From: Azolla caroliniana
Taxonomy: Eukaryota > Plantae > Polypodiophyta
Assembly (NCBI GenBank): GCA_043228905.1
Contig: JBHGNT010000016.1
Span: 6,758,001 to 6,822,000, forward strand
Reading direction: 5' to 3'
DNA: 64,000 nt
Below the pieces are notes generated by a model that saw only the letters and a program-made list of their open reading frames with translations, made no database searches and was not told the DNA's origin. The first letter of the stretch is position 1, and each line of letters begins with the position of its first letter. This document shows, piece by piece, positions 3,599-60,620 of this stretch. The position numbers and the translations under genes are program-made.

Positions 3599-5172
3599 TT
3601 AGGGGTTATAGAGTCGATTTCCGCATGTGCACTTCCAACCCTCGGGCTTGTAGTCGGAGGAGCTACTATAAGACGAGGATGCGCGTAATTGGGGCGTCTC
3701 GGGGTGCCGGCCGATCATATGGGCGGGGGTGGCGGTTCCGGGATCCGAACCGGACATCGGCCGGTCAAGGCTACTCTTACTAGCCACGGAGTTTCTACTA
3801 GACTCCCCGGTGGCCACACGTTGCTCAGCATTCCCGTGTGTCGAGGCGAGATTGGTGGGCACTTGCACCGCCTCGCACGGGCGGCACACGTTACACTTGC
3901 TTTCACACGTGGGCGGTCGTGAGCCCATCGTCATCATCATCGCCTCCCGCTTCCTAACCCTAATCTCCTCCTCTTCTTCTTCCTTTCGGGGCCTCTCGTA
4001 TACGATCCGGCCCACCGTGTCTAATAATCCCGCTTCCCTCCTCAATGTCTCGTCGATCTTCATCGTAGTACCTAAAATCAAAAAAAGGATTTTCTTTTTG
4101 TGTTTTTTGAACAGTCTTGAAACATTAGTGACCAATGGCCTGAATCATTAAGCCAATCAATGCCTCCACCTCATCTAAATCTTAGTAGTCAGCATCATGT
4201 ACTTCTTAGTCAAGGTCATGTACCTCTTAGTCAATTAAGATCATGTACCTCTTAGTCAACATCTTCTTCTTATGTCAAGATCATGTTCCTCTTAGTCAAC
4301 AATCTTGTACTTCTTGGTCAACACATATTGTGCTTCTTAGTCAAGGTCATGTTACTTCTTAGTTAACACCATTTGCTTCCTAGTCAAGGTCATGCACTTA
4401 GTCCACTTCATCTATTGTAGGTTGCTTTGGAAGTCATTGTGAGTCATATTCAAGCTCCATATTTCATCGAATCTTGACTCATTACCTCGACTAATTTAGG
4501 ATTTAGTCAATCTCGACTCGCTTTAATTACTTGACCTCGACCACCACTTTACCCAAATGCTATAATTGGATTAGCTCCAACAAAGTAATGTGGTCAACCA
4601 CAACTAATTATAAAAAACTAGAAACAATGATAAATCTAAAAACTAATCATCGGTGAACTGCAACTAATTACGGTTGATTTTTAAGTTATAACAAAAACAA
4701 ACTTAGGTCGAAATTTGTTTATTTTAAAAGGTTTTCGCAGATTCAAATTAGTGGCTTAAATCTAGTCAAACATAAGAGGGCTTCTACATCTAAACATTAA
4801 ATTATGTAATTAAATGTCTTCATTAGGAAGAGGAGTGGGCAGCATTAATCTATGTATCTAACACAAATCAATTAAACAATTCATTTGTCAACATGATCAC
4901 AGTACCTTTTTAATATATTAATAAGTCCAATATTAAAGAATTCATGTGTATTTAACTTACAATCATAATTATACCCCATACTCTCAAGTCATGAGAATGG
5001 TTTTGTTTTAATTATTAAGTCTTATAATCATACCTTGATTAATGTATTGATGGGGCACTCTAGCTGTGCTAATAACCTCCGGATATTCGATCAAGATGAA
5101 GGCAACAATTGGTAGGGAGGCATGTAATAAGGTTAGGCAAATAGATACATTTAATGAGCTATTGAGGTTCAT
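3599..5172 (-). CDS. EPF/EPFL-family secreted Cys-rich peptide (EPFL1/2/3-like); exons 5172-5034, 4071-3599
   Basis: Exon 1 MNLNSSLNVSICLTLLHASLPIVAFILIEY... is hydrophobic and signal-like; it joins through a phase-1 GT-AG intron to GSRPPTCESKCNVCRPCEAVQVP...DYKPEGWKCTCGNRLYNP, the 6-Cys EPFL signature. Confidence 0.92.
4180..4405. repeat. Degenerate ~21-bp tandem repeat in the EPFL intron
   Basis: About 10 copies of a CTTAGTCAAGGTCATGTACCT-like unit. Confidence 0.8.
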
Positions 5173-17488: not shown

Positions 17489-17934
17489 ATAATGGTTGAG
17501 CATAGTAAGGCTATCAAATCCCAACTACCAACATATAGGGATGGGACATTATCAGACCCCACTTTTGTGAGGCATAGCAAAGGAAGGCCATCAACTTTAA
17601 TGTTGGAGACTCTTGATTCCCGAAGCGCAAATTTAGTGTACTTGAGACCATGCAGTCAATGGGGATATGGAGATGATTTCTCTCATCTTCTTTCGTTATC
17701 CGGGTTTTGTCATAATGGTTGAGCATAGTAAGGCTATCAAATCCCAACTACCAACATACAGGGATGGGACATTATCAGACCCCACTTTTGTGAGGCATAG
17801 CAAAGGAAGGCCATCAACTTTAATGTTGGAGACTCTTGATTCCCGAAGCGCAAATTTAGTGTACTTGAGACCATGCAGTCAATGGGGATATGGAGATGAT
17901 TTCTCTTGTCTTCTTTCGTTATCCGGGTTTTGTC
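17489..17934. repeat. Near-perfect 223-bp tandem duplication
   Basis: 17489-17711 and 17712-17934 differ at only a few positions. Confidence 0.95.
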
Positions 17935-18242
17935 ATATCCATTCCTAGAACGAGCAATAAGATGTTAAAAGAGCCACATTGGTTGGTCTTTTATATGTTG
18001 TATCGAGAGACATGGGCAAACTTCTCCTTCGTCGTTGTCTCCGTAAACCCGAACATATCTACGAGAAAAAGTCTGGCTCCGCCCAAGTGTGAAACCAAAC
18101 TCCTTTGAAGTTCCGTAAGGAAATACGTACAGAGCTTGATTCAGCTACAGTTGCGGAAACAACTATAGCGAGGTTCCATCGCTCCCTTCTTTCTGATCAT
18201 CATCATCATCATCAGATCATCGTCCATCCCTCTTCTTTGATC

Positions 18243-21200
18243 ATGAAGCCATGGAAACCTAGTACTAATTCGAAGCCTTCGAATACTAGTATTTCTTCCA
18301 AAACTCATCCCAGCACCACATCCAATTCTTCGTCAAAACCTTCTCCTGCGAAGAATATTAACAATGAAAAGAAAACAAGTCATGGTGAAGATAGAAAGGT
18401 ATGGCCTTTCTTTCAGTCTTTTCCTCTTCTGATGTGGCATTATATAAAATGAAAACTAGATTGTTTTTGTTTGTGCATTACTCGTGAATTGTTGTTAAAC
18501 TGAATATTGACCTAAAATTTATGTATGACTTAATTCGATGTGGAATTTATAGATATAACTGGAGTTCGATGCCTATGCATGTAACTGTAAATGGAATATG
18601 AAGCTTACATTTCATGTCTGGCTTAGTGGAATTTGTTGGAAGCGGTTGATTTACAAAGCCTTTGTAAATGGAAATTGTTGTTGTCAAATAGATAAAGTCT
18701 AATGTGTGTTCGATAATTAATGTTGGTCGCAGTTAATAGATGAAGCTTATCACGTTTACTTTGAAACATTAACCGTTGTTATAGATGGATAGAAGTTAGT
18801 CATGTTCATGTATATAATTAATGTTGGTCGCAGTTAATAGATGAAGCTTATCACGTTTACTTTGAAACATTAACCGTTGTTATAGATGGATAGAAGTTAG
18901 TCATGTTCATGTATATAATTAATGTTGGTCGCAGTTAATAGATGAAGCTTATCACGTTTACTTTGAAACATTACCCGTTGTTATAGATGGATAGAAGTTA
19001 GTCATGTTCATGTATATAATTAGTTGTTGCTGTCAAATAGATGAAGCTTAATCATGTTTATGTATATTATAATTGTTGTTAATGGATGAAGCTTAATCAT
19101 AACTGATTGTCATCAAGTGGATGATGTGGAATCATCTTTGTGAATGTAACTGATTATTTCCAAATGGATGAAGCTTATCATATGTTTATGAATAAAATAT
19201 CTGGATGGATCAAATCACCTAGCTTTATGAATGATAACTGTTGTGAATTGTTGGAAGGTAATCATGTTTATGAACTTGTTACAAATGGATTCAACTTACG
19301 GATATTAGTTGTTGGATGAATCTAGTCATGTAACTCAGAACGTTGCGTGTGGTAGATGGATGAATCTATTCATGTAACTACAAATGTTAATTGTTGTTAA
19401 TTGATGAACCTAGTCATGGAACTTACAAATGCCTCCTGTCGTTAATGGATGAATGCAGTCACGTTGATTCGGAATGTTAACTGTGTCCTTAATGGATGAA
19501 TCTAAACATTTTACTTATGAATGTTAATTCTTGTTGTTGATGCTGGATATACCTAATCGGTGTTTCTTTACGAGTGTTGTTTGTTATTAACATACAGTCT
19601 CTCTCTTGTCATATGTATAGCAAGCCAAATCAGCTCATACATCGACCCCTTCTTCCCCAAGTAGCGATCAAAAAATAACGTCAGGAAAGGAAACACCTTC
19701 CCCAAACAGTGATGAAAAGATAATATCAGGAAAAGAGTTGCCATCTTCTCCAAGCAGTGACCAAAAGATCATGCCAGGAAAAGAAACGCCTTCTTCTCCA
19801 AAGAGTGATCAAATGATGAGTAGAGGAAAATTTGATGCAGAGAACTTAGCAGCTGAGGAAAGCAATCTCGTAGAATCAGAACTGGAACAAGAGAAAAGCA
19901 TAAATTCTGGCGAGGCTATTGAAACAGAGAAAGGCAATATATCTGAAAGAATTACATCAGTGGATGATAATATGACACTGGATGGAAGGAAGGATTTGAT
20001 GGCAGGATCAGAAAAAGATAATTCGTTACAGATTAAAACTTCAGGAGGTTTGAGAATGAAAAATCTTCTTAATAACAACCGGGCGAGAGACTTAGCTTCG
20101 TCTGAAACTGGATGTGATGAACAGGTGAGTTTTCACTCTTCCTTTGTTGCGATTAGTCCAATGAAAATAATGACCTTATGCGAATTTTTTATTTATTTTG
20201 AGCCTTACTTGAGGAAACATATATTGAATACAAATATGCTTATGGACAATAATAATAGATGGAAAGTAAAGCTTTGAAGCAGACGAGCAGATCACTTGAT
20301 ATGCTTATTACGGAGCATATTCTTCATAGCGAGCAAGAAGGCTTTCTGTTTTCTAAGGTGATATTTAGCATCTAATTCTTTAATCTTAATTTTCGTAACT
20401 CTGCAAAACCAAAATTTCCTCTCCTGAAGGTTTTCGAGTCTTCACTAAGGTAATTAACATCTACTTATCTGCTTTGCAATTTTTTAATTCTTCTCAGTAT
20501 GACGGCTCGTTTTCTGAGGTTTCTTGTCAAATAAAAGAGCATTAAAATTCCAAAATTGATTCTAGTGGAGTCTTTACAGACCGTCTCTAGAACATTGTTT
20601 TCCTTCACCTCTATGCAAACACAAATGTTTAGAAAATTTTACACCTCTTGATAGATTATAAGAAGTTTTCCCTTCATCTGTATTCATAATAGAGTGAAGA
20701 AATTCAATAAACCTTGTGGTCAATCAGTGAAGAAATTTTACATCTCTTGATCTATTTTCACTATCGGAGGTAATGCTTGTAGAATTTCTGAAGCAATCAG
20801 TAACAAATGGATATCACTTCGGTAGTAAGAAAATTTCTTTGCTTTAGCTCTATGCTAATGATGGAATTTAAATTAATGCTAATTTCTACTCTAAAAATAG
20901 AATACCGATTGAAGGAACCAAAAGAAAACATCCTAAATAAGAGTGGAAATGGATCTACATTTTCTGTAACTATGGAGAGAGAGTATGTAATGATCTAACT
21001 GTAGGAAGCTTTCTTTCCTTACACGTAAATACTGTAGTTTCTCATAATAGAAAACTCTGGAATGAGAGTTAAATAGAGAACTGTCGAAAGAACAGGCTGT
21101 TAGAAGCTTCTTGAATGCACATAAATGTCAGCTTCAACTTTCATCAGTTATAATAGAGTGAATAAACTGAAAGGAGAAGAAAAAACTTCCGATATGTGAG

Positions 21201-21820
21201 GATGAATGGAGATACATTTTTTGTAATTAGGTATTGAAAGAATCTTTCTGAAAAAACTGATTTCCTTCCAACCTTTGAGTAATGTTAACATCAGGGCATA
21301 AATGCTCACTACCCTCTTTATCTTTCTTTTTTTCTGTTATATGCAGGGAGAGCAACTGGTATTGAAAGGAGGTTCAGATTGCAACTCAGAAGAAATCTTG
21401 CAAAAAGCAGAAGATCATTATAATACATTACAAACTGATAAACAAGATATATCAAGAAATTTGAATAATATTCATATTCCTCTGGAAGCAGCTGTTGTGA
21501 AACTACCTTCAGATAATAATGTGAAAGCACACCAGGCCACCTCTATATTACCTTATCATAAACCTACAGATTTCATGGAACCTTTGATAGCCAAGGATAA
21601 ACCTTCACACAAATTAGAATCTTCCAGGGGAAATCATCCAAACAAAGACTCGTCACGTAAATATCCCTCTTTTTGGTCGGATTTATTGGCCATATTACGG
21701 AACCTCTACACGGGGCGAGCTTTTCTTCTTTCTTCAATGGTGCTTCCAACTGTTTGCATGATTTGGTTCATCTGTGCAGGTGTTAATCTTGATGGTAGCT
21801 TTTACCTTCCCCCAACATAA
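18243..21820 (+). CDS. Orphan tail-anchored protein with plant KASH-like C-terminus (~400 aa); exons 18243-18398, 19621-20124, 20283-20357 (probable), 21347-21820
   Basis: All junctions are phase-0 GT-AG and keep the frame open. Ser/Pro/charged disordered body, then hydrophobic segment AFLLSSMVLPTVCMIWFICAGV and tail NLDGSFYLPPT-stop. Confidence 0.75.
18713..19560. repeat. Intronic minisatellite: three near-identical 101-bp units followed by degenerate ~45-50-bp monomers
   Basis: Units start at 18713, 18814 and 18915; the ATGGATGAAGCTTA core recurs to ~19550. Confidence 0.9.
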
Positions 21821-23501
21821 GTATATATTCTTAGGTGCTTAACATACATATATGATAAGATTACTTCAAAGTTCAAACTATCCAAGTGCCACCTTTCCAA
21901 TATGCTTCTTTATATACAATAATACATACATACATACAATATGCTTCTTTATATACATACATACATACATACATACATACGTTTCCTTTAAACTATCCAA
22001 ATACTAATTTCCCGATATACGCTCGTTAATTATACTTACCTTCCCAAAATACTCTCGTTGCATATACATATGTAGTAAATATATATACTAAGTTTTCTCA
22101 AATCTAAAGTTCATGCATATCCATTCATGATCTTTCGTTAAACTATCCTATAGCAAAGTAGTACCTTCCAACTCTCATGCATACATTAGATTTCTTTTAA
22201 ACTATCCCCAAATTACCACTTTTTTTTTCCAAAAAACCCAATTACCACTTTTTCAACATACTTCCATGCACATGTATACATCCATAAACCTACTTTAAAC
22301 TATCCAAGTATATAATAGGTTTGACACATTGTTATTTTTTGGTGCCCATGGCTCAGACTTAAGTCATTCATAAGCAATAATCACATTGCAAGAGCCAAAG
22401 TCAATAATAACTGTAATTGTATTGAAACTTAACATTGCTATGTACGTAAAAATCAGTTTTTGAGTGATTGATCTTTTCAATAGGTTCTATTTTTCACCAA
22501 AATCAACATTTGTCCACATTGTGTTAGAGCCAAGACTTGGTGACTCATGAACTATGTACATAGAAATCAATTTTGAGCGATTGATACTTTCAATAGGATC
22601 TATGTTTAATAGTCTTTGGTCAAGTTAACATAAATCTCGTAAATGAGTAGTGAATTTGAGGTTTATAGAGTTTAGGGGTTGTGTTAGAGGATACGTTCTA
22701 CCCTAAACAATTTCTCATATTCGAAGTAAATAGATTTTCTCATAAACCTTGTCAATGGTGACTTTTGAATTTGAATGGCGTATTGCAAAGCTTAAAACTT
22801 ATTTTGAAGAAATTGCAAATGGCTGAAATTATACTTTTACTGAAATTCGAAATCGACATTCATCTATTTGAAGGCCCAACAACACTCCTTATACACGGCT
22901 CATATTAGGAAAGCATTGTATATAAAAAAAAACCTTTTTGTTCTATGCATTCTATTTATTTTAGGAGGAAAACATCACACTTTAGGTATCCTACGTGAAG
23001 AAGCCATAAAGTTCTTGATTGGAGCATAAGTAATCTTTGATTGGTTTGCTAATCAGGTTATGTGGCACATGAGTCAAAGCAATTAGAGTAAAAGATACAA
23101 AAAGAATTTATTGATAGTCATTTACCTTCAATGCTATTTATACTAATAAGCAGCTTTTGAACTTAGAGTACATGTTACAACCAAGGAAAGGCTTTGAGAA
23201 TATCTAACTAGATCATGCCATGTAGAATTGTTAGGTATCTATTGGATATTTCACATCTAATGTTCGAGTCTTGGGATACTCTCACCATCCCTTGTAGCTC
23301 GTAGAAATAGACCTAAGAGAGGGAGAAAGAGTTAAGATTAACATTGTAAATAGAGTATAAATGTAACTTGTACAAACCTTTATACCATCTCAAGAGTGAA
23401 ATACTTTAGTTAAATGAGTAGGAAGTATAAAGGTAAAATTATAAACCTTTTACAAGGGTTCTTTCTTATTCTAACAAATACCCTAAAGCAAAAATTTAAG
23501 C

Positions 23502-24730: not shown

Positions 24731-27318
24731 TCACTTGTGATTTACCAGCCCTCCAAGGAGCACTTCACTTGTGATTTGATTGACTTGTTTGTTACCACTT
24801 CCACTCGCTTCTGCAACAATCTCTGTTTCTGTTGTTCCGCTTACACTCGTCAATGATCCATTTGAATCTTCTGCCATTGCAATTGTGGTTTGCAGCTTTA
24901 GAATTCCATTTGTATATGCTGCTTCCTCTATCACATCCTCTTCCAATACACTTACTTGCCCATTTGCTTTAGCATCTTTAGCTTCAACAATACCCGTCTC
25001 TATCACATCCTTTTCCAACACACTGCTTTCCCCATTTATTTTAGCATCCCCCGCTTCACCAACAACTGCCTCTATCACATCCCCTCCTAGAACTCCATTG
25101 CTATTTATAGCATCAAGTGAGACTGAAGGACCATTTGGCTCACTTTGGTCTAGTATGTCATTTGATGAGTCTACTGTATTAGCTATGTGATTTGGCAGGT
25201 CATTTTTATTAGCTATTTGCTTCGATGGTTCATTTGTAATAGCTATTTTCTCTACTAGACCACTTACATTAGCTACTTCCTCTACTAGATCACTTGCATT
25301 AGCTATTTCCTCTACTAGATCACTTGCATTAGCTATTTCCTCTACTAGATCACTTGCATTAGCTATTTCCTCTACTAGATTACTTGCATTAGTTATTTCC
25401 TCTACTAGATCACTTGCATTAGCTATTTCCTCTACTAGATCACTTGCATTAGCTATGTCCTTTGTTGGGTGTCTTGTATTCACTATCTCTTCTGATGTGT
25501 CTATCGAATCCTTGATAGAATCCTTAAAGTCAATAAGTTCCTCTAAAATGCTATCAACTGACTCCAAAGATTCCCATGGCTCGTTGACAGTCACTAGTGA
25601 AACACCTTCAATTGTCTGGAACTTCCGGTTGGACCCCGCTTGCCACTCAAGATCTAAATTTTCACCTTTTCGAATATATTTGAACTCAAGCGTCTTTCCC
25701 ACAGGAACATCCTAGTACAAATTGACGCCACATTAAAAAGGTTATTAAGGCTTAGATTGTATGAATTGATGCATATACTGAGCATCACTATAGACTCAAA
25801 AAACCCAACAGTTTGAGGTAGTGAATATTTACCACTTCTGTGCTCCAGATATGACCTTCTGACCAATCCATAGGTATTGCCGCATCAACATTCCAATCAC
25901 CCAATATAGGATGATTGCCCACAACATAGAACTGCTCTCCGAAATGGCACTCTTTTTCAAGAACAAGCTTCACTTTGGCTTGAGGGCCTAATGAAGTGAA
26001 AACAAATTATCGATTAATCAAAGATATGCACGTAGCAGAGATAAAACTATTGATGCAGATTATATGTATGTTTCTGTTCTATATGTATCTGTGCATGTAA
26101 AATCTCTGTGTGTGATATATCCATATAAAGTATTTATATGTATGTGTATGTGTGTTTTGATATGTATGTGTACGTACATAGGCATATATACGTGTGTCCC
26201 TGAGTTGTAGAGTATGCATGCATGCATGTAGGTAAGTCTGTCTCTCTGTCTGTCTGTCTGTCTGTATGTATGTATGTATGTATGTATGTATGTATGTATG
26301 TATGTATGTATGTATGTCTATCTGTCTCTATGCATGCATGCATGCATGTATGTATGTATGTATGTATGTATGTATGTATGTATGTATGTATGTATGTCTA
26401 TCTGTCTCTATGCATGCATGCATGCATGCATGTATGTATGTATGTATGTATGTATGTATGTATGTATGTATGTATGTATGTATGTCTATCTGTCTCTATG
26501 CATGCATGCATGCATGCATGTATGTATGTATGTATGTATGTATGTATGTATGTATGTATGTATGTATGTCTATCTGTCTCTATGCATGCATGCATGTATG
26601 TATGTATGTATGCATGGCGTATGTATGTGTCATTGCTAACATAAACCATGCAACTTGAGAGAAGATTTTAGGAAACCATATTCTGCGGACTGATTTCCAG
26701 TGATGTCCACAACTTCCTCAGAAGTAGCCGAGAAAGGATCTTCAATGACAGCAACAGACTGATTTCCAGTGATGTCCAAAACTTCCTCAGGAGTAGTGGA
26801 GGAAGGATCTTCAATGACAGCTACATCCTGCACAATGATATCGAGAGCATTTTGAATTACCTCCAGATCTACAACAAATGATTTGACATACAAACAGCTG
26901 ATAACTCTTCTAAGGCTTTCTAAATTGTCAACAATAGGGCTTTTGGTGAGTACATACTTATTGGCCTTAGGGTCTCTAAGGTATCGATAGTAATGTTTCT
27001 AGTCATCAACATTAGGGTTTTGAAGTTAGTACATACTACATAGTTATCAGCATGAGGGCTTCTTTCTTAAAGATGACACAATTAGACGTTCAAATTTATA
27101 CATCCAGATTCCAAACACAATAGGAACAGGAGTCTCAAGATCATCATCACCTGAAGGGATGCAGAGCATAAATGTAGACTTGGGAAGGTAAGGGAAGCCT
27201 TTCTTTTGTTAAAGAAATAGTTGATGGGGGTAGGCTGCCTCTTCAGGAGGCAAGGAAGAGGGGTAGAGCAACTCCTGAACAGGGAGCACACTTTAGTTGC
27301 ACTCATCATACCCTCCAT
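24731..27318 (-). CDS. CBM20 (starch-binding domain) protein, probably plastid-targeted; exons 27318-27151, 26827-26677, 25987-25833, 25711-24731
   Basis: Transit-peptide-like Ser/basic N-terminus; VKLVLEKECHFGEQFYVVGNHPILGDW...MDWSEGHIWSTEV-DVPVGKTLEFKYI...LEWQAGSNR is a typical CBM20 fold; consistent intron phases; acidic repeat tail. Confidence 0.88.
26220..26630. repeat. Compound (TATG)n/(CATG)n microsatellite with higher-order periodicity (intronic)
   Basis: Four blocks of (TATG)n-TCTATCTGTCTC-TATG(CATG)n. Confidence 0.95.
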
Positions 27319-31249: not shown

Positions 31250-32397
31250 TTTTTTGCAAAAAAAACACTACTTCGCATTACTTAGCAAACAAAGTACACC
31301 ATAGACCAACAAATTTCAGCAACCCTCACACTAGCTTTCTCACCAAAGTGGTCATAGTCCCCACCTCATTTTCAACAAAAGTATCCCAACAACTCCTATA
31401 ACCTAGTAATTATTGTACCATATCTATATATATTTACAACACCTGGTCACTAATGGAAACCATTGGTGGAAACAGCCATCGAGGTGCTTGGTAGTTCCAT
31501 TTTAGGCCCTGATGATGATTTGCCCACCATAGGAGAACTACCCCATTTCAGTAGGAACTTTGACCGAGCTCTTTCAGTTGCATCAGATTCCCCCTGAATC
31601 AAAATGTACTATCCTCGCAACCAAGATACCAGTTCGAACAAGATATTTAACAACACCTCACCGCTAGGGAGCTTTTCCTGTTGAAAAACAAACTTAAAAA
31701 GCCTGGTCCAAATGTGCCACATCGATAAACAAGCCACCATCATCCATATCTCTTCAAAAAATTCTGAGTTAGTGCCAGGTCAAACTCCAGCACGTTGAAA
31801 CACCTTGCCACCCCGCACTATAAACCCATGATCATGGGGGTTTAACTGTTCAACCCAACCTTCCCTTGTTAACTTCAGCCCCTATAAGGACCCCCATACA
31901 ACTCTCCCATTCACACCACATGCTGCCACTATCCCGAGACTTCTACCCCAAATGTTAATAGCCTCTCAACAATTCCAAAAACAGTGAGGGATTGATTCCA
32001 AAGAGTGTCCACATATCTTGCAACCAACCTCACCACCACGACACCTCAGCCACTCCCCCACTGGTACTGCTTTATGACTAAGAAGCCACAACCAAAGCTT
32101 TATTTTTTCTAGCATATCGAACGCCCATAGTCTCCACCAAAACAACTTCAACAAGTCATAAGATATGCCTTTGTCCCTCCAACTATTGTGAGTTAGAGCA
32201 GCGCCCATTGATTTGGAGCCAATGATTTTCCTTCCTAGCATAGTAGTGTACTCGAAAAACCTTTCCAGTTTGACCGTTTTCAATTTCTGCCACCACACCT
32301 CTAGTGGATCCCAATCCAAATCACATACGAGCTTGTTGTCAACTATCCAGAGTTTACAATCAGTTTCTAGCTTCCTTGGGTCTGGGTTTACTTGCCA
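31250..32397 (-). mobile_element. 5'-truncated L1-type LINE with poly(A) and TSD
   Basis: zf-RVT peptide KIKLWLWLLSHKAVPVGEWL...CKICGHSLESIPHCFWNC; poly(T) at 31244-31255; direct repeat CTCAAGCATGTTTTTT at 31234-31249 and 32398-32413. Confidence 0.9.
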
Positions 32398-34804
32398 CTC
32401 AAGCATGTTTTTTATTCATATTAATATTGTGGGTTGAAGTCTCAAGTAGTTAGTTTGAAATTGTATTCATGACAAAAAAAACTTTGTAGGTTTAGTTAAA
32501 CATCATGCACACCAACTATTTGCTCCTAAAAATGACTTTGTGAAGCCATTTTCCATAACCCAAGCGCCAAAATAATAATTTTTTCGACAAAATGATATGC
32601 TAATAAACATACATTCACACATGCATTTTCATACCATCAAATAAACTATAGGTTGAAAAACTTTATTGATTTGCGAAAAAAAACACACTTACTACATCAA
32701 AGTCAATGTGAGCTATATCTTACAAAGAGTCTAAGAGACAAATGAAGAATACCAAAACTTGTCATATCAACACATAACTAATGAGATAATATATTGAGCA
32801 TTGAGCAAAACATATTGTCTTTCCCCTTTTTTGATAAGAAAAAGTAGAACAACGATTCTAGCCTTGTAAAAAAGACAAAAACCAATATGCCTTATTTACC
32901 TTTGCAGGAAGGAATTCAGTACTTCAAGTGCTCTAGTGTTGATGATATGCATAACCAAGTTCATCAAATCATTGGATTCATATAAAGAACACTTGATTAA
33001 CAATTTTGAATGAGACATGGCTATCAATGAAAGGGGTTACTTGTGGAGAGAAATGGAAGACGCACGTTACATAGCAAAGTAGGGATGGCCACATAATCAA
33101 CATGTTACTCATAAACAATAAGCTAGTTCATTATGTAGAAATTAAAAAAGAACTATTCATGGACATATGGTTGGTTTGATTTTCAAGTGGAATCATTTTA
33201 CTAAGTAAAAGAGATGAACCTTTAGCTTACACATCCATCCCATTTCATCACGAAGAATAAGAAACATGTAATTTTGAAGGCATCTTGTCAACATGCACAA
33301 ATGCTCCTTAACTAGGAGAATACTATTAGTTGAAGTAATTGATCAAAATCTTATATTGTACACAATAATTGACAATGACTTCAAGAGAAACCATCCAACA
33401 TGACACAATACTTGACTTCATCTAACATTCAAAATATGGAAATAGGCTCAGGGAATGAAAGTTATTCTTTAAACTCTTGAAAAATTTTGGACCCAAATTC
33501 ATGGGTTGACAACCCCATCCCATACCTTCACCTTTAAGACTAGAATACCCAAAACGTGGATTGTCTCTACCCCTTCCCAACAAGGGAATGTAATTAGTCA
33601 CCTATGTTGTCTCAATAAATGTACCTTCATACTAGAATTGCCAAATGTTGACCATGTAATAGAATTAAATAAACAAATTTGAATTTAATGGCCCACATAA
33701 AGTTTTAAGGCAAATATCAACTAATGTAATGTAATGTTGTCAACACGTACATTTCTCATGTTAGTTCAATATCTTCCCAAAGATACTATACCAAACATTT
33801 ATTCAAAAGTAACACAAATGTCATCCATAGTTGCCTGTTGTCCTTGTTAAAAATTGACAGATATGTTTTCCATTGGTACTATGCCATGTTGACAAGTCCA
33901 TGGAATATATCCTGAAATAATATCATGGAATATATCGACAACCTTACAGTATTCTTATTGATTTAGTTCATTGGACTCTAAAAACAGACTGAAACAAGCA
34001 GAAGTCATTTTGGTGCATGATCAAGCACAAGATATCACACAGAATACAGAAGAAATTGTGGCTTGAATTCAAAGGTATGGAGAAGCATGTCAAAAACACA
34101 CCTACTCAGCTTTAGCAATGATTACACACACTTAAGTAAATAGGAGGGTTTGATGTAAATGTTTTAGTAGCAGTAGTCTATCAAGCATACTCACACATGC
34201 TGATTCCGGTTATAATGATCACCCCCAATTTTAGTTCACTGGAAAACGCATCAGCCTATTTTCCGTCAACTTACTGATATCAGAATGGGGACTCATTCTA
34301 GGTTAAATGTGTCAAATTCAAGAGATCATATTCCTGGGTTCACTTCTGCTCATACCCTTATTAAGTTTCCTGGATAAACAACCTCTTTAGAACTTACTGA
34401 TTTAAATGCAAATACCCCGAAGCAGTATTATAGCAGAGAATTCCTACACTACGATAAGCTACATTTACAATAACCTTTTAGTGAAAGGTAAAATATGGAA
34501 TAATAATTCTGTGAGATATGACAATAACTTAACATTCAATGCTGTTTGTTAAGATATGACTTTGCATAGTACCAGAAGGAACCAAGTATGCCTTATAGGG
34601 TGATGATAGGCATCATATATGGTATCACGATATAAATTACCTTCTAGAGTTAGGAAGTTACTGAAGCCAAAACTCAAACTCATGAATACAAGTAGAGATT
34701 GGACAAGTAACTATGAAATATTTAGTTCCACAAATGATGACCGTGCTTGTTCACTCAATCTCTCACTTTTCGAGTGACAAGTATTGAAGACAAACATGAG
34801 TTGC

Positions 34805-43936: not shown

Positions 43937-45095
43937 TCAATCCATAGTAAAACACTCGAGTATTTTGAAGTGCATTCTTAAGCTCGGGGGCTCGCCTTCA
44001 AAGTAGAGCTTTTCGAATATCCGAACCTTATCACCATCGGTCTTTGCCAACATAGAAAGTAATCTGATGCAAGTATCTTTTTCTTGGGCTATCCACGGGC
44101 GATCCCGGTCCTTCCATTGCCGAGGCGTTCCATGGAAGACAATGCGAAGTCCCGGACCCGATGCTGCAAATTTCACTACTTTCTCTAGAATGTGCTGGTC
44201 CGTCAGATATGCCCCGGGGCGATTTAGACCCACGTCGATATAATGCACTTCATGTATGCTTTCGAGAAGGTCGGGGATCGACCCCGGGAACAAAAGCTTC
44301 GATCGAAGTTGCTCTCCCGTGTTTTTGTCTAATATTCCTCTGTTCTTCTGTTCTTCGAAAAAGGCGATCTCAGAAAGAAGCTGATTTAACACAACCCCGC
44401 CTTTGCTAAAACCGAAAAGCAAGGTTGGAGGGATCGACTGCATTCCTTGTTCTTTTTCTTCTTCTCTTTCTTTTCTTGTTTCTTCTTCTTCTTCTTCTTC
44501 TTCTTCAGAGAACTTGTCTTTGCTTTCAATCTTCTGTTTCACCTGCACTAAAATGATCATACACAACATATGCATGTATATATTACTCTCAAACATAGAT
44601 CGACAAATGACTCTCAAAATAGAGAAAATGAATAACACTGAACATTACTCTCGACACATATAGATACATGACTCTCGACATAGGCAGTCGGTACCTTTGC
44701 AAGGCAATCATGAAGTAATGAAACAATTGCTCGTGAAGCCGTAAGATTCTGTGGATCGTAGCATAAGGGATCTCCACGTGGGGAAATGGATGGCAAGAAT
44801 GCATCATAGCATGCGAAAGGGCCACTAAATCTGGGGGCTTCCACAACCCATGTGTTCACAAGGCGGTCCTCAAACTTCGAGAGTAGTATAGCGACTATAG
44901 TCTCCAAATCAGAGAACCTCTCAATAGTTGGGTCTCCAGTTCCAGATGCTGAGTCGCCCATGAAGAGTAATGCATTGCTTGAAGGCTTCTACAATTTCCA
45001 CCCAAATGTTTTATTAATGTGTGGTTACATTAATAAAACAGATATACACACATACAATGTACATATACATATACATTCACATACATACATATATA

Positions 45096-48071: not shown

Positions 48072-49327
48072 TCATGGTAAGAGAGAAGGGGCATCACTTC
48101 CTCTTTGGGTGTATAACTTTGCTTGTAATTCCTTGAACCTTTCCAAATTAAAGTTTCTTTTAGTCATCAACTTTTTTTGCTTGTTTGAGAACATAGTATG
48201 CATGAAGTCTTGATAAGATGGTTCCCTATGGGTGAAAATGAAGAACATGAGCCCTCCAATGAGACCCGCGGATGTTACAAAGAATGTGATGGGTTCCATG
48301 ACATCCCAAGAAAGATCCCAAAATGTGAGGCGGAAGAACAATAGTGACTGAAATGTTAAGCCCCCAAACACTCCCCAAATGACATGCCGAGCTTTCTTGT
48401 GTGCGATTTTGTCGATCTCTTCCTTCTCCTTCTCCAATTGTTCGAATTCCTTCCTCCTCGGATCATATTCTGGGATTGATGAGATTGGTAATGCATTAGC
48501 TAATAATCCTGCAAGCTGCAAAATGCAACGGATTGTCCATTATTATACAAGTCAAAAGATATTGCAAAATGCAAACCGTTAACGACGTAACAAAACAGAA
48601 AAGGAGATGTGTTTTCGTATCTAACCACGTCTACTACTGAATGTATTGGTTAACAGTATTGGTTAACCACGTCTACTACTGAAAGTACACGGAATGTCTG
48701 GATGGAGATGGTACATACCTTGAAAGGACAGTATGAGGATATTAAAGGTGAGACAGATGTTGCAGTGTTGCAACGTCTCGAATTTATTGTCTATTGGAAG
48801 AAGACCCCTTTTCTCACAATACAAAATTCAAGACCTAAATGGTGCTTAGCGCCACCAGTATGGTTGTTCCCGCCACCAATCACATAACTTGGTTAAGGAG
48901 TGGTGGAGTGTTGAGGGATGGGACCTAAGGAAGAATGCACCAGATCAATGGTAGCTTGATGGTAGGTAAATTTTTTGTAATGTTGTTCATAACTAATGAA
49001 AGGATATTTTTCCCGGAAAAAAAAAAAAAAACAGTATGCATGCATGTATATGTCGCTATGATTGTGCGTATGTTGTTAACATAAAACTTCACGTAAGCCT
49101 TTCTAGATGTATATATTATGCATGTGAGTGAGTGTGGGTGTATGTGAAGGCATACAAACACATACCTGCAGGGATCTTCGCACATGTCCTAGTCCATCAC
49201 ATTGAGACAACAACATCACGATATGTGATAGTTTCTTGGATCTCATACAAAAGAATGTATAGATTGTATGTATGTATATGCATCTAGGTGTATATGAATG
49301 CAAACATACATACATACATATACATAC

Positions 49328-49394
<67 letters not shown>

Positions 49395-50174
49395 GGATCT
49401 TCCAGCATGTCCTGATGCATTATGAATGTAACAATATAATATGGAATATGAATGTATATATCCATGTATGTAGCAAATGTTGGCATGAATAAGTGCACAA
49501 TTCGACACGAACATGCATGGACACATATATATACATACATGCACACACACACACATATATGCATACATATACACACACCCAACATGATCTAATCCATCAT
49601 GGAGGCTGTCAGATATGAAGAATTCATTATATGATCACAGCCATGGAGCAACTATCACCTTATTTGGGCGAAGAAAGACATTGCCGCGGTATATGAAGAT
49701 AACACCCGCATCATCCAAGCTTCTGGCGACGGCATCCGCACCGACATCTGTTGTGGCAAAACCCATGTCTTTGCATAGCTTAATTACATCCACATAAGGC
49801 ATAGATTCACGGCCAGTGCTAAGCAAATGTTGCTTCAGATCTTCCATCTTCACAAGTTTCAACAGTCGTTTGGTCTCTTCTACAGTGCTGTTGCTCCTTC
49901 CTCCTGATGATGGTGATGGTGATGACTTGTTGTTATTATTCTTAGTTCTTTTATCATCATCGTCTTCATCGAGGAGTATCCTATGGCTATGGAAAAACGT
50001 GTGTTTCCATGGCAGGGTTCCTCCTGCTACTATGGGTGGATATGACAACAGACGGTGTGGTCTTGTGGTGTTGTGAAGAAGGTGAGAGTGATTCCATGGT
50101 CGGATTAACTCTGTCTGAGAGGTGAATATGGATCTGTGCACAAGGAACCTTCTCAGAGGCCTGCAAACCACCAT
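48072..50174 (-). CDS. MCU: Mitochondrial calcium uniporter family protein; exons 50174-49659, 48515-48072
   Basis: Arg-rich presequence-like N-terminus, LDDAGVIFIYRGNVFLRP, coiled coil, two TMs flanking RLTFWDLSWDVMEPITFF (DVME pore motif). Confidence 0.95.
48679..49031 (+). mobile_element. Short 5'-truncated LINE copy in the MCU intron
   Basis: Highly similar (inverted) to 59594-59935; ends in poly(A) at ~49017-49031. Confidence 0.88.
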
Positions 50175-50219
50175 GGTTCTTAGCAGAAAAAACACAGGGA
50201 AAGGGAAGAAATGGGCAGT

Positions 50220-50572
50220 TATACATATACATGCATGCACACATACACATACATACATTCATACATACATACATACATACATACAGGCACACATCCACAT
50301 ACATTCATTCATACATACATACTACATACATACATATACATGCATGCACACATACACATACATACAGGCACACATCCACATGCATACATACATGCACACA
50401 TCCACATACATTCATTCATACATGCATACATGCACACATCCACATACATTCATTCATACATACATATACATGCATGCGCACATACACATACATACATACA
50501 AGCACGCATCCACATACATACATACATACATACATACACGTACACATACACGTACACAAACACATACACATA
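50220..50572. repeat. (TACA)n-type degenerate microsatellite upstream of MCU
   Basis: Directly visible; also (TACA)/(TA)n at 49305-49390. Confidence 0.95.
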
Positions 50573-51393: not shown

Positions 51394-52730
51394 ATAAAGG
51401 AACAAAACGAGTTGGTAAGCAAAGAGACAAAGTTAAGTCTTCTTTAGCATTATCCATCCGCGTGTCAATTTTTGACCTTTTCTAAAAAAACTGCACATTT
51501 TTAAGTTTATAAAACAATGCTCCAAGAAAAGTTTACCTCGTTCATTAAAACATTGATCAAATTCTAGAGGTTGCCAGCATGAAAATATGTAAGAAGCAAC
51601 CAAAAATTTGTCACAAATATATATATATATATATCTATATCTATATCTATATCTATATATCTATATCTATATCTATATATATATTGATTTATTTATTGAA
51701 GTTTCCCAAACTTGATTTGTTCCCCCTTAAAATCTATCTGTTAACGATTGAATGATAACCTCGGGACAAATATTTTTCAGGCAATGGTTAAAAGCTCTCT
51801 ATGTTATATGTGAAGTTAGTTAATGGTTTGTGAAAACTCCCTCTTAAACACACATCTCTCTTGATTCTAGTTGTTGGTTAGCGTTTAGTAATTAATTACA
51901 CACAAATTTTGTCATGAGGGTGGGGAAAGTGAGAAACCCCATTTTAATGGGAAATGTGGAAATTTCAAAATGTTTTAGTTGACTCATTCCAACGAAAATA
52001 TTTTGGGGATGGAAACTTGGATTTGATTGCACGACAATGGTCCTTTTTTGCAAGCATCAGGCATAGGATGATCTACGTGCAAATATGTACGATGTATATT
52101 GGATTGTTAAAACTTAAGACCATGAGTATATTAGGGACCTATCCCAATCTTTATAAACAAACCATGCTTTATATGCAAATAAACCACAAAGTTATGAACA
52201 CACCATAACAATACATGTCCAAGCAATGACCTGGCCAAGCAAATTGTCTACAATCTAATGTCCATGTCCTTAGTTCCTTCACTAAAGGGACACATTTAAT
52301 GAGGTGCTACCTATTATGTAGAGAGATAGACCATAATTATGTGACCAAACTAGAGTTATTTGGCTCATGGGCTGAATAAATTATCTTAATGAATAGATCT
52401 CAGGATCGACTAAGGCGATCATCACAATGGGCCCATATGCGGCCTAATTGACACGGGCAATAAGGTGTTAGCCCATAAAAAGCATAGTTTGGCGACAAGA
52501 ACATGGCCATCCGGCCTTATTGGCGGCCGTTCACAAGCTTTGTCCGGTGGACACTCAAAAATCACTTTCAAATCCAGACCTTTTACATCTATCAAATAAA
52601 TGGGGTTCTTCTCTGAAATGCCCATATACATAGTTTGGATGAATCCACTAGCCAAGCTGTCCTCTTGGTCTTGCATTTTCAGCCCTGTTGATGTGGGTGA
52701 GAGCTATGGCCTACCCTGAGATGGGAAGAG

Positions 52731-55409
52731 ATGTCAAAACCATGTTCACTTCACATGAGAAGACCCTTCTCTGGCCTCCAAAATGCAGAACATGCTCTGG
52801 TCAGTGCCAGTGGAGAGTGTTCATGGAAGCTTATACAAGGAAAAGAAGAAGAAGAAGAGGAGGAGGAGGAGGAGGATAAAGAAGCACCCATCAGAGTAAG
52901 TGCATCTTCTTACTCTAAAATACTCAAGAAATGTTGTGATTCATTGATAGATGGAAGAATTATACATGATCACATCATAAGGCATGGGTTTGATAAGAAC
53001 ATATATGTGGTCAATTGTCTTGGTTACTTTTACGGTAATTTTGGAGCTCTTAGGGAAGCTTACTGGTTGTTTCGAGATATATTTGGCCATGGTCGGGATG
53101 TGTTTTCATGGAATTTCTTGATAAGAGCGTATGCAAAAGATGGCCGATTAAATGATGCATTCGAATTTTTCCAACAAATGCACGTTGAAGATGTCCTTCC
53201 GGACAAATTCTCCTTCATTTGTCTTCTTTCTTCATGTGATTACAGAGATCAAGGCATGCCATTACATTCTTGCATCATTGAGCATGCTCTGGAAACACAA
53301 AACCTCATTGGAAATACGCTTATTAGCTTCTATGGGAAGTGTGGTAGGTTGGAAGAAGCACACAGTAGTTTCGAAATGATGTCAACACAAAGAGATATTG
53401 TCTCATGGAATTCAATCATTTCGGCATATGCACAATACGGGGAAATAAACAAGGCATTCTCTGTGTTTGAACAAATGTCGTCTGTGGGGATGAAACCCGA
53501 CAAAGTCACCTTTATTACTCTTCTTTCGGTGTCGGCCGACAAGTCATCCCTTGATGAAGGCCGATATATTCACATGTATGTCATGGATAGTGGGTTTTCC
53601 TTGGAAAGAACAATTGAAAATGCTCTTGTAAATATGTATGGTAAATGTGGTATTTTGATAGATGCAAGAAACATGTTCGAATTGATGGATCAAAAGGATA
53701 TTGTCTCGTGGAATGCTATCATTACCGCATATGTATATAATGAAGAGGGCAGTGAGGCTCTACAGCTCTACAGTTCCTTGTTGCTCAAAGGATGGATACC
53801 CAACAAAATTACACTAATGAGCATTCTTGATGCTTGTGCTTCTGAGGGGTTCTCAATGGAAGGCCGGAGAGTGCACACATGCATTTTATGCTCTGTGTTT
53901 GTCTCAGATATTGTACTAGGGACGGCGATTGTTCATATGTATGGATCATGTAAAGCTTCACAGGACAATGCAAGAATTGCTTTCGACCAAATGCCTGAGA
54001 GAAATCTCTTCTCTTGGAATACAATAATTGCAATGTATACCCACTGTGGTGAAGGGATCAAAGCTTTTTTCATGTATAAAAGAATGCAATGTGAAAGTAT
54101 ACTGCCTAATCATGTCACCTTTGTTACTGTCATTTCCGCATGTGCTGATCTAGCATTGAACACCCTCTTTCATGGAAAGTGTATTCATTGTCTCATCATT
54201 TCAGCTGGTTCCTCAGCAGATGTGGTCATAGCCACATCATTGCTACACATGTATGGTAAGCATGGGTGCTTGAAAGAGGCATATAAACTTTTTGAGTGTG
54301 TGATGATGCCAAATTTAATCTCGTGGAATGCGATAATGGCGGCATATGCCCATAATGGACATGCAATGAACGTCCACAATCTTATGAACCGAATGAAACA
54401 AGAAGGACTAGTCCCAGATAAAGCCAGCTTTCTTATCATTCTTTGTGCATATGCTAGGCAAGAAACGTTACCAATGGGAAAGCAGACACATGCTTGCCTT
54501 GTTCAAAGCATGTATGAAACTGATATTTCAGTTGCAAACGCCCTTGTAAACATGTATGGAGAGTGCCATGCATGGGTGGATGCATCAAATGTGTTTGAAT
54601 GTATGCCTCAAGGCAATGTATTCTCATGGAATGCGTTAATAGGCGCCTATGTGAAAGGTGACCAATCGAAGCTTGCATTGCAAATCTTTCACAATATGCA
54701 ACATGAAGGTGTACTGCCAGATGAAGTGACATTCATATGTGTATTGGATGCGTGCTTGGTGGAGATGGCAATGGAGAAAAGCAAGCAATTTTATTTGTGT
54801 TTTATAGAGAGTGGATTAAAACTAGAGGTGGCATTGGCATCTTCCTTCATAAGTGTATATGGAAAATGTGGTAGGTTGCGAGATGCACAAAGGGTATTTG
54901 ATGAAAGTCCGAAGCATAAAGTGGATACATGGAACTCTATGATATCAGTGTATGCCCAAAGTGGTGAGGGAAAGGAAGCCCTTCATATGCTGTCTTTAAT
55001 GGACAAGGAAGGGGTTGCCCCAAATGAAGTCACTTTTGTCAGTGTTCTAACTGGGTGTAGCCATGGAGGTCTAGTCCTTGAAGGTTTCTTATGTTTCGGT
55101 TCTATGACCCAAGACCATAGGATTAAACCTAAGATGGAGCATTATAATTGTTTGATTGACATGCTTGGTAGAGTAGGAAGGCTAGATGAGGCAGATTATC
55201 TCATCAGGAAAATAGTACCTTTTCCACCCACATCCACACCTCTCTTAAGTTTGCTTGCATCATGTAGGCATCATCAAGTTGATGTAGTCCTTGGGGAATA
55301 TATTTCAAACCTTGCATTAATGGTGGATCCTCAGGATTGCACACCTTATATAATGTTGTGGAATATTTATGCAACAGCTTGCAATCTTGGGGATGGAGAA
55401 TCAGGCTAA
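52731..55409 (+). CDS. PLS-class pentatricopeptide repeat protein with E domain and no DYW (putative organellar RNA-editing specificity factor)
   Basis: Intronless 892-aa ORF with repeated NALVNMYGKCG / DIVSWNAII / PDKVTF motifs, ending in HYNCLIDMLGRVGRLDEA...LLASCRHH...PYIMLWNIYA. Confidence 0.96.
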   Translation: MSKPCSLHMRRPFSGLQNAEHALVSASGECSWKLIQGKEEEEEEEEEEDKEAPIRVSASSYSKILKKCCDSLIDGRIIHDHIIRHGFDKNIYVVNCLGYFYGNFGALREAYWLFRDIFGHGRDVFSWNFLIRAYAKDGRLNDAFEFFQQMHVEDVLPDKFSFICLLSSCDYRDQGMPLHSCIIEHALETQNLIGNTLISFYGKCGRLEEAHSSFEMMSTQRDIVSWNSIISAYAQYGEINKAFSVFEQMSSVGMKPDKVTFITLLSVSADKSSLDEGRYIHMYVMDSGFSLERTIENALVNMYGKCGILIDARNMFELMDQKDIVSWNAIITAYVYNEEGSEALQLYSSLLLKGWIPNKITLMSILDACASEGFSMEGRRVHTCILCSVFVSDIVLGTAIVHMYGSCKASQDNARIAFDQMPERNLFSWNTIIAMYTHCGEGIKAFFMYKRMQCESILPNHVTFVTVISACADLALNTLFHGKCIHCLIISAGSSADVVIATSLLHMYGKHGCLKEAYKLFECVMMPNLISWNAIMAAYAHNGHAMNVHNLMNRMKQEGLVPDKASFLIILCAYARQETLPMGKQTHACLVQSMYETDISVANALVNMYGECHAWVDASNVFECMPQGNVFSWNALIGAYVKGDQSKLALQIFHNMQHEGVLPDEVTFICVLDACLVEMAMEKSKQFYLCFIESGLKLEVALASSFISVYGKCGRLRDAQRVFDESPKHKVDTWNSMISVYAQSGEGKEALHMLSLMDKEGVAPNEVTFVSVLTGCSHGGLVLEGFLCFGSMTQDHRIKPKMEHYNCLIDMLGRVGRLDEADYLIRKIVPFPPTSTPLLSLLASCRHHQVDVVLGEYISNLALMVDPQDCTPYIMLWNIYATACNLGDGESG

Positions 55410-59249: not shown

Positions 59250-60620
59250 CCATTAATGAGCTACTGATATCACATTTGGTTTAAATTCCTCAAAGCAACA
59301 TGGTAGCCAATAAAATATCAACATCAATTGCCCTCCCTCCCCCCTTTTTTGTGAGATTGTAGAAGCCATACCTACCAACACACTTTTCTTTAGGCACTTG
59401 GTCACTACAAATGTTAACATCGCATTAGACCTCGTTCCACAAAGCATTTCACCCTCCAACACATTGGCTACCACTCCCGTTTTTGCGACCAATGAGTTAC
59501 TTTCATGTTTGCACCACATAACATTGAGCATAGGTGTAAAACCTAGTGACAACATGTTAGCTCTGCACCAAACTTTTTTCGAAAAGGCAATGTTTTTTTT
59601 TTTTTTCCTGGAAAAATATCCTTTCATTAGTTATGAACAATTATTATAATAAAAACTGACCTCCCATCAAGCTACCATTGATCTGGTGCATTCTTCCTTA
59701 GGTCCCATCCCTCAAGGATAAATAGTATGAACACTCCACCACTCCTTAACCAAGTTATGTGATTGGTGGTGCTAAGCACCATTTAGGTCTTGAATTTTGT
59801 ACTGTGAGAAAAGGGGCCTTCTTCCAATAGGCAATAAATTCGAGACGTTGCAACACTGCAACATCTGTCTCACCTTTAATATCCTCATACCGCCCTTTCA
59901 AGGTATGTACCATCTCCATCCAGACATTCCGTACACTTTCCACGAGATGAACAGTAGTATTACCAAACACCTTAGAACACCTAGGCGTCCAAATAAACCA
60001 CATTGTGGTGGTGCATAGTAGCTCCCATACTTCTGGCATTGTCTTTACCATGTAAGGAGCCTCCATTTGACTTCGTTGCACCACCATTATCATTCCTCTT
60101 TGAATTCTAATAATCGTGTCATTTGGGCATGCCTCATATGGCCACATCACTTGTGCCATTGTAGCCCATACTACCATACCCCACAAAAAATTGCAATCCC
60201 TAAACATACAGGCAAGAACTTGGAACACTCGTCTCCAAACTTGCTGTGCAACATGACATTCCCACAAGCAATGTTTCAATGTCTCCATTTGACAACTACA
60301 ATAGATGCATGCGGTCGGTGCAGCTGATTGTTGCAACCATTGGCCAATTGGTAATGCTCTATGTATTACTAGCCATTGGAAGACATTTATTTTCGAAAAG
60401 GCAATGTATTATAACCCTTTGACACCACATCAATCATTCCTACGTTGTTCTTCCTTTATATATGTCTATTAACATGGCCTCCTCTTGGATCAACAATTGT
60501 CATTGCATTTTTTTGCAACCATTCAATGACTGCCATACCAAACATCTAGCCTCTTTACGGAAATCTGTTACCACAATGTAAGCATCACCCTCAATATGGA
60601 AATCTAAGCACAACTCTGTC
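59250..60620 (-). mobile_element. Older retroelement remnant (RNase H-like) interrupted by the LINE at 59594-60389
   Basis: Minus-strand LDFHIEGDAYIVV near 60570-60610 resembles the RNase H EGD motif; degenerate. Confidence 0.4.
59594..60389 (-). mobile_element. 5'-truncated L1-type LINE with poly(A) and 18-bp TSD
   Basis: zf-RVT CIYCSCQMETLKHCLWEC; poly(T) 59593-59606; perfect direct repeat TTTTCGAAAAGGCAATGT at 59576-59593 and 60390-60407. Confidence 0.93.

What the first reader, a model, noticed from the sequence alone, without database searches (positions are those of the whole stretch)
18243..21820. Candidate novel KASH (LINC complex) protein
Seen: a ~400-aa spliced ORF with no recognisable domain, one C-terminal hydrophobic segment and an 11-aa tail NLDGSFYLPPT-stop. 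Known: plant outer-nuclear-membrane KASH proteins (WIP, SINE) end in a TM plus a short tail finishing in hydrophobic-[V/I/L/P/A]-P-T that binds SUN proteins; SINE1/2 tails have similar acidic and aromatic residues before xxPT. The N-terminus shows neither SINE1/2 ARM repeats nor an obvious long WIP-type coiled coil. Inference: a lineage-specific nuclear-envelope to cytoskeleton linker, the strongest protein-level novelty candidate in the window.
Basis: partly seen in the sequence, partly recalled or inferred. Interest (0 to 1): 0.8.

Follow-up and report, generated by a model that had tools for sequence, protein, structure and literature searches.

The report
New plant KASH-type nuclear envelope tether
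This plant (likely fern) gene is predicted to encode a floppy protein with one membrane anchor and a short tail ending in the four-residue hook that plants use to grip the nuclear envelope's SUN proteins; all four relatives found keep that hook, so it is likely a new, lineage-restricted nucleus-anchoring protein of a known kind.

Summary
Three phase-0 exons (18243-18398, 19621-20124, 21347-21820; GT-AG introns) give a predicted 377-aa protein. About 325 residues are predicted disordered, followed by one transmembrane segment (345-364) and an acidic 13-residue tail ending LPPT-stop.

It passes my re-implementation of the published DORY plant-KASH filter, as 1 of 1156 reading frames in the window. 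All 4 homologues found also pass: three at 87-88% identity and one at 48%, ending LPPT, PPPT or FPPT. One carries a two-codon insertion in the tail yet still ends PPT. Exons 2 and 3 keep their frame in relatives while introns gather indels.

No Pfam domain, ARM repeat, long coiled coil or link to a named family was found. The closest analogues in design are Arabidopsis SINE3/4 and maize MLKG, which are also lineage-restricted KASH proteins.

Limits: splicing and exon 1 lack transcript support, amino-acid constraint is weak (dN/dS about 0.6-0.8), and SUN binding, localisation and any cytoskeletal link are untested. Verdict: likely a new family of a known kind, possibly the first non-SINE1/2 KASH family from a seed-free plant. 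The scan had not noted it before.

The parts
18243..18398 (+). Exon 1 (predicted): ATG, 52 codons, basic and S/P-rich, disordered
   Evidence: Open frame, donor AAG|GTATGG, CT-rich leader. No relative or transcript covers it. An in-frame CAG at 18215 leaves an upstream exon possible.
18399..19620 (+). Intron 1, 1222 nt, GT-AG, holds 101-nt and 44-49-nt tandem repeats
19621..20124 (+). Exon 2 (predicted): 168 codons; S/P-rich repeats followed by an acidic stretch
   Evidence: Open frame. A relative's contig covers 19832-20068 with 21 other letters and 0 gaps.
19651..19817 (+). 48-nt (16-aa) repeat x3.5 carrying most of the protein's S/T-P sites
20125..21346 (+). Intron 2, 1222 nt, GT-AG
   Evidence: One contig of a relative (X1 record 3) bridges 20101-21426, so exons 2 and 3 are collinear there. 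The acceptor is identical in L001.
21347..21820 (+). Exon 3: 157 codons plus TAA
   Evidence: Homologues P0001-P0004. L001 shows one in-frame 6-nt insertion only.
21347..21391 (+). Conserved cytoplasmic block GEQLVLKG..DC.SE (residues 221-235), candidate partner-binding motif
   Evidence: 12 of 15 identical to the 48% homologue; 4 synonymous and 0 non-synonymous changes in the first 30 codons versus L001
21386..21469 (+). Short predicted helix (residues 234-261) with a heptad-like pattern
   Evidence: AlphaFold2, low confidence, pLDDT 50-60; heptad heuristic
21668..21715 (+). Predicted amphipathic helix just before the TM (residues 328-343)
   Evidence: highest hydrophobic moment of the protein and of P0002
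21719..21778 (+). Single predicted transmembrane segment (residues 345-364)
   Evidence: KD sum 42.0; 41.7-42.8 in the four homologues
21779..21820 (+). Predicted luminal KASH-type tail GVNLDGSFYLPPT-stop (LPPT at 21806-21817), net charge -1
   Evidence: pattern from PMC4050730

Best explanation
The gene is predicted to encode a tail-anchored protein of the outer nuclear membrane that likely works as a plant KASH protein, its LPPT tail likely binding the SUN domain of C-terminal SUN proteins in the envelope lumen. Steps: (1) A three-exon mRNA gives 377 aa (inferred; splice signals and frame conservation are shown). (2) The single C-terminal hydrophobic helix with an acidic tail inserts into the ER/nuclear membrane, not mitochondria or peroxisomes (inferred). 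(3) The terminal four residues dock in the SUN pocket and hold the protein at the nuclear envelope (inferred from SINE1-5, where deleting them weakens or removes binding). (4) The long disordered cytoplasmic part acts as a flexible tether. It would recruit a partner through the conserved block at residues 221-235 and the short helix after it, with the S/T-P repeats as possible phospho-switches (speculative). By analogy with SINE3, my guess for its role is positioning the nucleus or its microtubule organisers in dividing or reproductive cells; nothing here tests that.
For: The DORY criteria (single TM with KD sum of 32 or more, 9-40 aa tail, end [DTVAMPLIFY][VAPIL]PT; PMC4050730) are met by the model and by 4 of 4 homologues. 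It is the only one of 1156 window ORFs that passes. The 48% homologue P0002 ends SLYFPPT. P0003/L001 has a two-codon insertion in the tail and still ends PPPT-stop. In the source paper 4 of 5 Arabidopsis DORY hits had conserved tails, and all 5 candidates tested localised to the envelope and bound SUN. Frame is conserved: 0 frame-breaking gaps in 474 nt of exon 3 versus about 5.1 expected from the flanks (P about 0.006), and 0 gaps in two exon pieces (237 and 289 nt) of another relative whose intron and flank pieces carry 21-60 gap letters each. Tail net charge is -1 to -3; higher tail charge redirects tail-anchored proteins away from the ER in mammalian cells (PMC5450235 abstract). 295 of residues 1-325 are predicted unfolded, the same design as SINE3.
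Against: There is no experimental or modelled SUN binding. The homologues are few and exon-3 only: three of the four fall in one 90% cluster, so there is just one distant witness, whose DNA and stop codon I did not see. The tail as a whole is no more conserved than the rest (6 of 13 identical to P0002, against 26 of 63 in the middle of the exon). Exon 3 differs from L001 at the same rate as intron and flank (7.6% versus 7.4% and 7.5%). dN/dS is 0.62 for exon 3 (11 synonymous, 25 non-synonymous) and 0.78 for part of exon 2 (4 and 13, from 17 of 21 differences), with 0 synonymous and 3 non-synonymous changes in TM plus tail. DORY has known false positives (At3G47410). Maize MLKG1 and MLKP2 stayed at the envelope without their KASH tails. 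No cytoskeleton-binding domain was found, and the SxIP-like and AIM-like motifs are not kept in P0002.
Confidence: 0.72

Rival explanations
1. It is a divergent SINE1/2 paralogue that lost the N-terminal ARM domain and kept the disordered linker, TM and KASH tail. It would still be a KASH protein, but not an independent family.
For: SINE1/2 is the only KASH family reported in moss and Selaginella. Its members have long disordered regions before the TM. The Selaginella member has a Trp-containing segment before the TM. The AtSINE1 tail shares acidic residues and the Tyr five from the end.
Against: No SINE protein scored in the phmmer or profile searches. No ARM-like ORF lies upstream: no + strand ORF of 120 aa or more between 4151 and 19621, and no Pfam hit above cut-off in 28 upstream + strand ORFs of 55 aa or more. 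Short tails converge easily.
Confidence: 0.1
2. It is an ordinary ER or endomembrane tail-anchored scaffold (for example a contact-site tether or selective-autophagy receptor) whose PPT end is inherited but does not bind SUN.
For: A disordered cytosolic domain plus one TM fits many tail-anchored scaffolds (general knowledge). An AIM-like EDHYNTL is present. Tail conservation is average.
Against: The terminal PPT survives about 50% divergence and a tail insertion. The chance rate of the pattern is about 3-5 x 10^-4. The AIM-like motif is absent from P0002.
Confidence: 0.12
3. The gene model is wrong or the gene is decaying: different exons, or a rarely expressed locus under relaxed selection.
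For: dN/dS is 0.6-0.8 and the exon substitution rate equals the intron rate. Exon 1 has no outside support. An in-frame acceptor at 18215 and a weak possible donor just before the tail exist.
Against: Frames are intact in the window and in all relatives seen. The splice sites are canonical, the exon-3 acceptor is identical in L001, and the 48% homologue resumes at the same exon start (Q|GEQLVLKG).
Confidence: 0.06

Closest known systems
Arabidopsis SINE3 (At3g06600), also SINE4 and Medicago SINE5
   Same: Disordered or domain-less cytoplasmic N-terminus, single C-terminal TM, short tail ending xxPT, narrow taxonomic range (PMC4050730, PMC11511747).
   Different: No detectable homology in my searches. 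About twice as long (377 versus 193 aa), has a 16-aa repeat, ends LPPT rather than PLPT or LVPT, and comes from a likely seed-free plant.
Maize MLKG1/MLKG2 (grass-specific KASH)
   Same: Lineage-specific, lacks coiled coil and ARM, found by the same DORY pattern (10.1101/343939).
   Different: No homology seen. MLKG1 has experimental localisation and SUN2 interaction data and co-localises with actin; none of that is known here.
SINE1/SINE2/MLKS2 family
   Same: Long disordered region, TM, short tail; the AtSINE1 tail has acidic residues and Tyr five from the end.
   Different: SINE1/2 carry an ARM domain of about 290 aa, which is absent here.
WIP1-3
   Same: TM plus short PT-ending tail.
   Different: WIPs have a cytoplasmic coiled coil and are reported from flowering plants. 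Here only a 28-residue low-confidence helix is predicted.

Membership tests
Plant KASH proteins (DORY definition) | Exactly one TM segment (20-aa KD sum of 32 or more) near the C-terminus | tested here: met
   my own re-implementation, Phobius not run
Plant KASH proteins (DORY definition) | Tail of 9-40 aa after the TM (plant tails about 9-16 aa) | tested here: met
   9-15 aa over the passing frames, 13 at the best
Plant KASH proteins (DORY definition) | C-terminus matches [DTVAMPLIFY][VAPIL]PT | tested here: met
   LPPT-stop
Plant KASH proteins (DORY definition) | Most homologues end in a putative KASH domain | tested here: met
   4 of 4, but three are one 90% cluster
Plant KASH proteins (DORY definition) | The tail is the true end of the expressed protein | tested here: inconclusive
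   No transcript evidence either way; frame conservation supports it
Plant KASH proteins (DORY definition) | Nuclear-envelope localisation and SUN-domain binding that depend on the last four residues | not testable with these tools
   Needs experiment; no SUN sequence was available for a complex model
SINE1/2 | N-terminal ARM-repeat domain | tested here: not met
WIP | Long cytoplasmic coiled coil | tested here: not met
   Only residues 234-272 show a heptad or helix signal; heuristic only
SINE3/SINE4/SINE5/MLKG | Sequence homology to family members | tested here: inconclusive
   None appeared, but only exon 3 was the query and these families diverge fast; no direct pairwise comparison was possible

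The most novel reading that the evidence does not exclude
An independently evolved, fern-restricted KASH family, unrelated to SINE1/2, that supplies the still unidentified outer-membrane link between SUN and microtubule organisers or nuclear-moving motors in seed-free plants. It would use a short linear motif (GEQLVLKG..DC.SE) and phospho-regulated repeats instead of a folded domain.
Probability: 0.15. Interest if true: 0.7.

Novelty: new member of a known kind. Interest (0 to 1): 0.42.

Why it matters
[quoted passage not shown] In moss, the KASH partner that couples SUN2 to microtubule organisers is described as unidentified (10.1101/2023.03.29.534829). A second, unrelated KASH family in a likely fern would show that repeated invention of KASH proteins is not confined to flowering plants. 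It would also give a concrete candidate to test for nucleus-cytoskeleton coupling in seed-free plants. It would not change the LINC model itself.

Tried and rejected
Expression: no RNA holder was listed. Laying runs X1-X3 gave no spliced contig of this gene. X2 looks like RNA of the same or a very close species, with a spliced, about 99%-alike contig of the neighbouring gene. It has no listed piece on this gene beyond a 32-nt CAT-repeat match. A part without cover proves nothing, so I draw no conclusion on expression.

Homology searches: the word-based search with exon 3 or its profile among longer proteins found none (0 of 342 and 0 of 7983 candidates), which is weak evidence. The profile among similar lengths gave only the same 2 proteins of 1051 candidates. 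Viral contigs: 0 of 48 pattern matches confirmed. PDB sequences: 2 chance-level hits, E 4.7 and 8.4. ESM Atlas: no usable hit for P0001, whole or residues 100-159.

Structure: the AlphaFold model had mean pLDDT 50.6, too poor for a fold search, so none was run. No complex prediction was run because no SUN sequence was at hand.

Other checks: no whole genome is held, so paralogues outside the window are unknown; none inside it. Extra phase-0 internal exons: none passed my filter. SxIP-like, AIM-like and NLS motifs were considered and dropped as absent or not conserved. Poulet et al. 2017 is not held; its results are cited second-hand.

Full report
Setting. The window is plant nuclear DNA (GC mostly 31-42%) with spliced genes for an epidermal patterning factor, a mitochondrial calcium uniporter, a C2orf69-like protein and a long PPR protein. 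That the host is a fern is not tested here. It rests on my own reading of the gene set and on unchecked notes from other windows of this genome. No whole genome is held.

Gene model. An ATG at 18243 behind a CT-rich leader opens exon 1 (18243-18398). Exon 2 is 19621-20124 and exon 3 is 21347-21820. All are phase 0 with GT-AG introns, and the product is 377 aa. No further phase-0 internal exon passed my filter. An in-frame CAG at 18215 leaves an upstream exon possible. However, no + strand ORF of 120 aa or more lies between 4151 and 19621, and none of 28 upstream + strand ORFs of 55 aa or more reaches a Pfam cut-off (28 of the 44 listed were scanned). A hidden ARM domain is therefore unlikely.

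Support from relatives' DNA. L001 aligns over 20911-22589 at 85%. Exon 3 has a single in-frame 6-nt insertion, whereas 1113 aligned intron and flank bases hold 16 gaps, 12 of them not multiples of three. About 5.1 such gaps would be expected in the exon and 0 are seen (P about 0.006). Run X1, probably DNA of another relative, has gap-free pieces over 19832-20068 and 21513-21801, gap-rich pieces over introns and flanks, and one contig bridging exon 2 to exon 3. Exon 1 has no outside support.

Protein anatomy. Residues 1-120 are basic and S/P-rich and include a 16-aa repeat x3.5 that holds most of the 8 S/T-P sites. Residues 121-220 are acidic. FoldIndex marks 295 of residues 1-325 as unfolded. 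A low-confidence AlphaFold model of exon 3 (mean pLDDT 50.6) shows helices at 234-261, 328-343 and 352-369 and nothing else. The 328-343 region has the highest hydrophobic moment. No exon has a Pfam hit above cut-off.

KASH test. Zhou et al. 2014 define a putative plant KASH domain as a 9-40 aa C-terminal tail directly after a single TM (20-aa KD sum of 32 or more) that ends in [DTVAMPLIFY][VAPIL]PT and is kept in most homologues (PMC4050730: parts 1-2 of the text, sections 17 and 21, passages, part 1 of the supplementary PDF and part 6 of the supplementary text read; the alignment figures could not be seen). The model passes: best TM 345-364, sum 42.0, tail 13 aa, LPPT. It is the only one of 1156 window ORFs that does. 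LPPT also fits that paper's animal pattern [PATHQL]PP[QTVFILM].

Homologues. phmmer over 1.84 billion representatives found 2 proteins, and cluster look-up added 2 more. P0001, P0003 and P0004 (87-88%) end SLYLPPT, SLYHPPPPT and SLYLPPT; P0002 (48%) ends SLYFPPT. All 4 pass the filter, with tails of net charge -1 to -3. The most conserved cytoplasmic piece is the start of exon 3: 12 of 15 residues are identical to P0002, and its first 30 codons show 4 synonymous and 0 non-synonymous changes against L001. Primers from the paper's Table S1 encode the AtSINE1 end as DDDVGYY and VGYYTVPT, sharing the acidic run and the Tyr five from the end. The SINE2, SINE3 and SINE4 ends lack that Tyr.

Results against. 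There is only one distant homologue, known as a protein fragment. Tail identity to it (6 of 13) is average. Exon 3 diverges from L001 as fast as non-coding DNA (7.6% versus 7.4-7.5%), dN/dS is 0.62 in exon 3 and 0.78 in part of exon 2, and TM plus tail shows 0 synonymous and 3 non-synonymous changes. The protein is thus weakly constrained apart from frame, TM, terminus and one motif. DORY produced 1 false positive among 5 Arabidopsis hits. Two maize KASH proteins stayed at the envelope without their tails (10.1101/343939, passages). Nothing in the sequence names a cytoskeletal partner.

Mechanism. The most likely reading is insertion into the ER/outer nuclear membrane, capture by SUN through the last four residues, and a long flexible cytoplasmic arm that recruits a partner through residues 221-265. 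The targeting step leans on a mammalian rule about tail charge (PMC5450235, abstract only). The binding step leans on SINE1-5 deletion experiments. The closest design, SINE3, is disordered, narrow in range and needed for the first post-meiotic mitosis of both gametophytes (PMC11511747, passages and Discussion). A similar role here is a guess. I put about 0.72 on an independent KASH family, about 0.1 on an ARM-less SINE1/2 derivative (also KASH), about 0.12 on a non-KASH tail-anchored protein and about 0.06 on a wrong or decaying model.

Novelty. Lineage-restricted plant KASH families are known. A review says only CRWN and SINE1/2 reach moss and Selaginella (PMC7746247, passages), and the moss SUN2 preprint calls the linking KASH unidentified (passages). 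I found no fern KASH paper in searches. In one search, none of the 25 listed papers (of 448) contained 'KASH', and none of the 15 listed (of 5463) contained 'plant KASH'. Those listings are partial, subscription journals are missing and Poulet et al. 2017 was not held. PMC6649574, PMC13280194 and PMC7982736 were seen as passages. The scan's own notes hold nothing on this sequence or on plant KASH proteins.

Verdict. A real, probably functional gene that meets every computational criterion for a plant KASH protein and belongs to no named family. It is a new member of a known kind, and of moderate interest until SUN binding and a partner are shown.

Noticed in passing
window 18399-19620 and 20125-21346: Both predicted introns are exactly 1222 nt but share no sequence (blastn), so this is probably coincidence.
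   Followed up: yes
window 17489-17937: A 223-nt tandem duplication (2 copies, 98% alike) lies about 300 nt upstream of the ATG, in the likely promoter.
   Followed up: no
window 24731-26998, minus strand: A neighbouring, convergent gene has a weak CBM20 starch-binding match (below Pfam cut-off) followed by a long acidic tail with a 10-aa repeat x7.4 and 24-aa repeats. Run X2 holds a contig spliced across 25710-25832.
   Followed up: partly
L001 898-931: The relative's tail has gained two codons in a C-rich run and ends HPPPPT, i.e. a PPPT end that fits both the plant and the animal KASH patterns.
   Followed up: partly
window 52701-55409 +: A single-exon PPR protein of about 900 aa with a weak E-motif match near its end and no DYW hit, probably an RNA-editing factor.
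   Followed up: no
window 3599-4144 -, 43937-44988 -, 48072-50258 -: An epidermal patterning factor-like peptide gene, a C2orf69-like gene and a mitochondrial calcium uniporter gene.
   Followed up: no
window 31966-32415 - and 59755-60408 +: ORF pieces that look like the 3' ends of LINE-type retroelements (Cys/His motif; recalled likeness, not tested).
   Followed up: no
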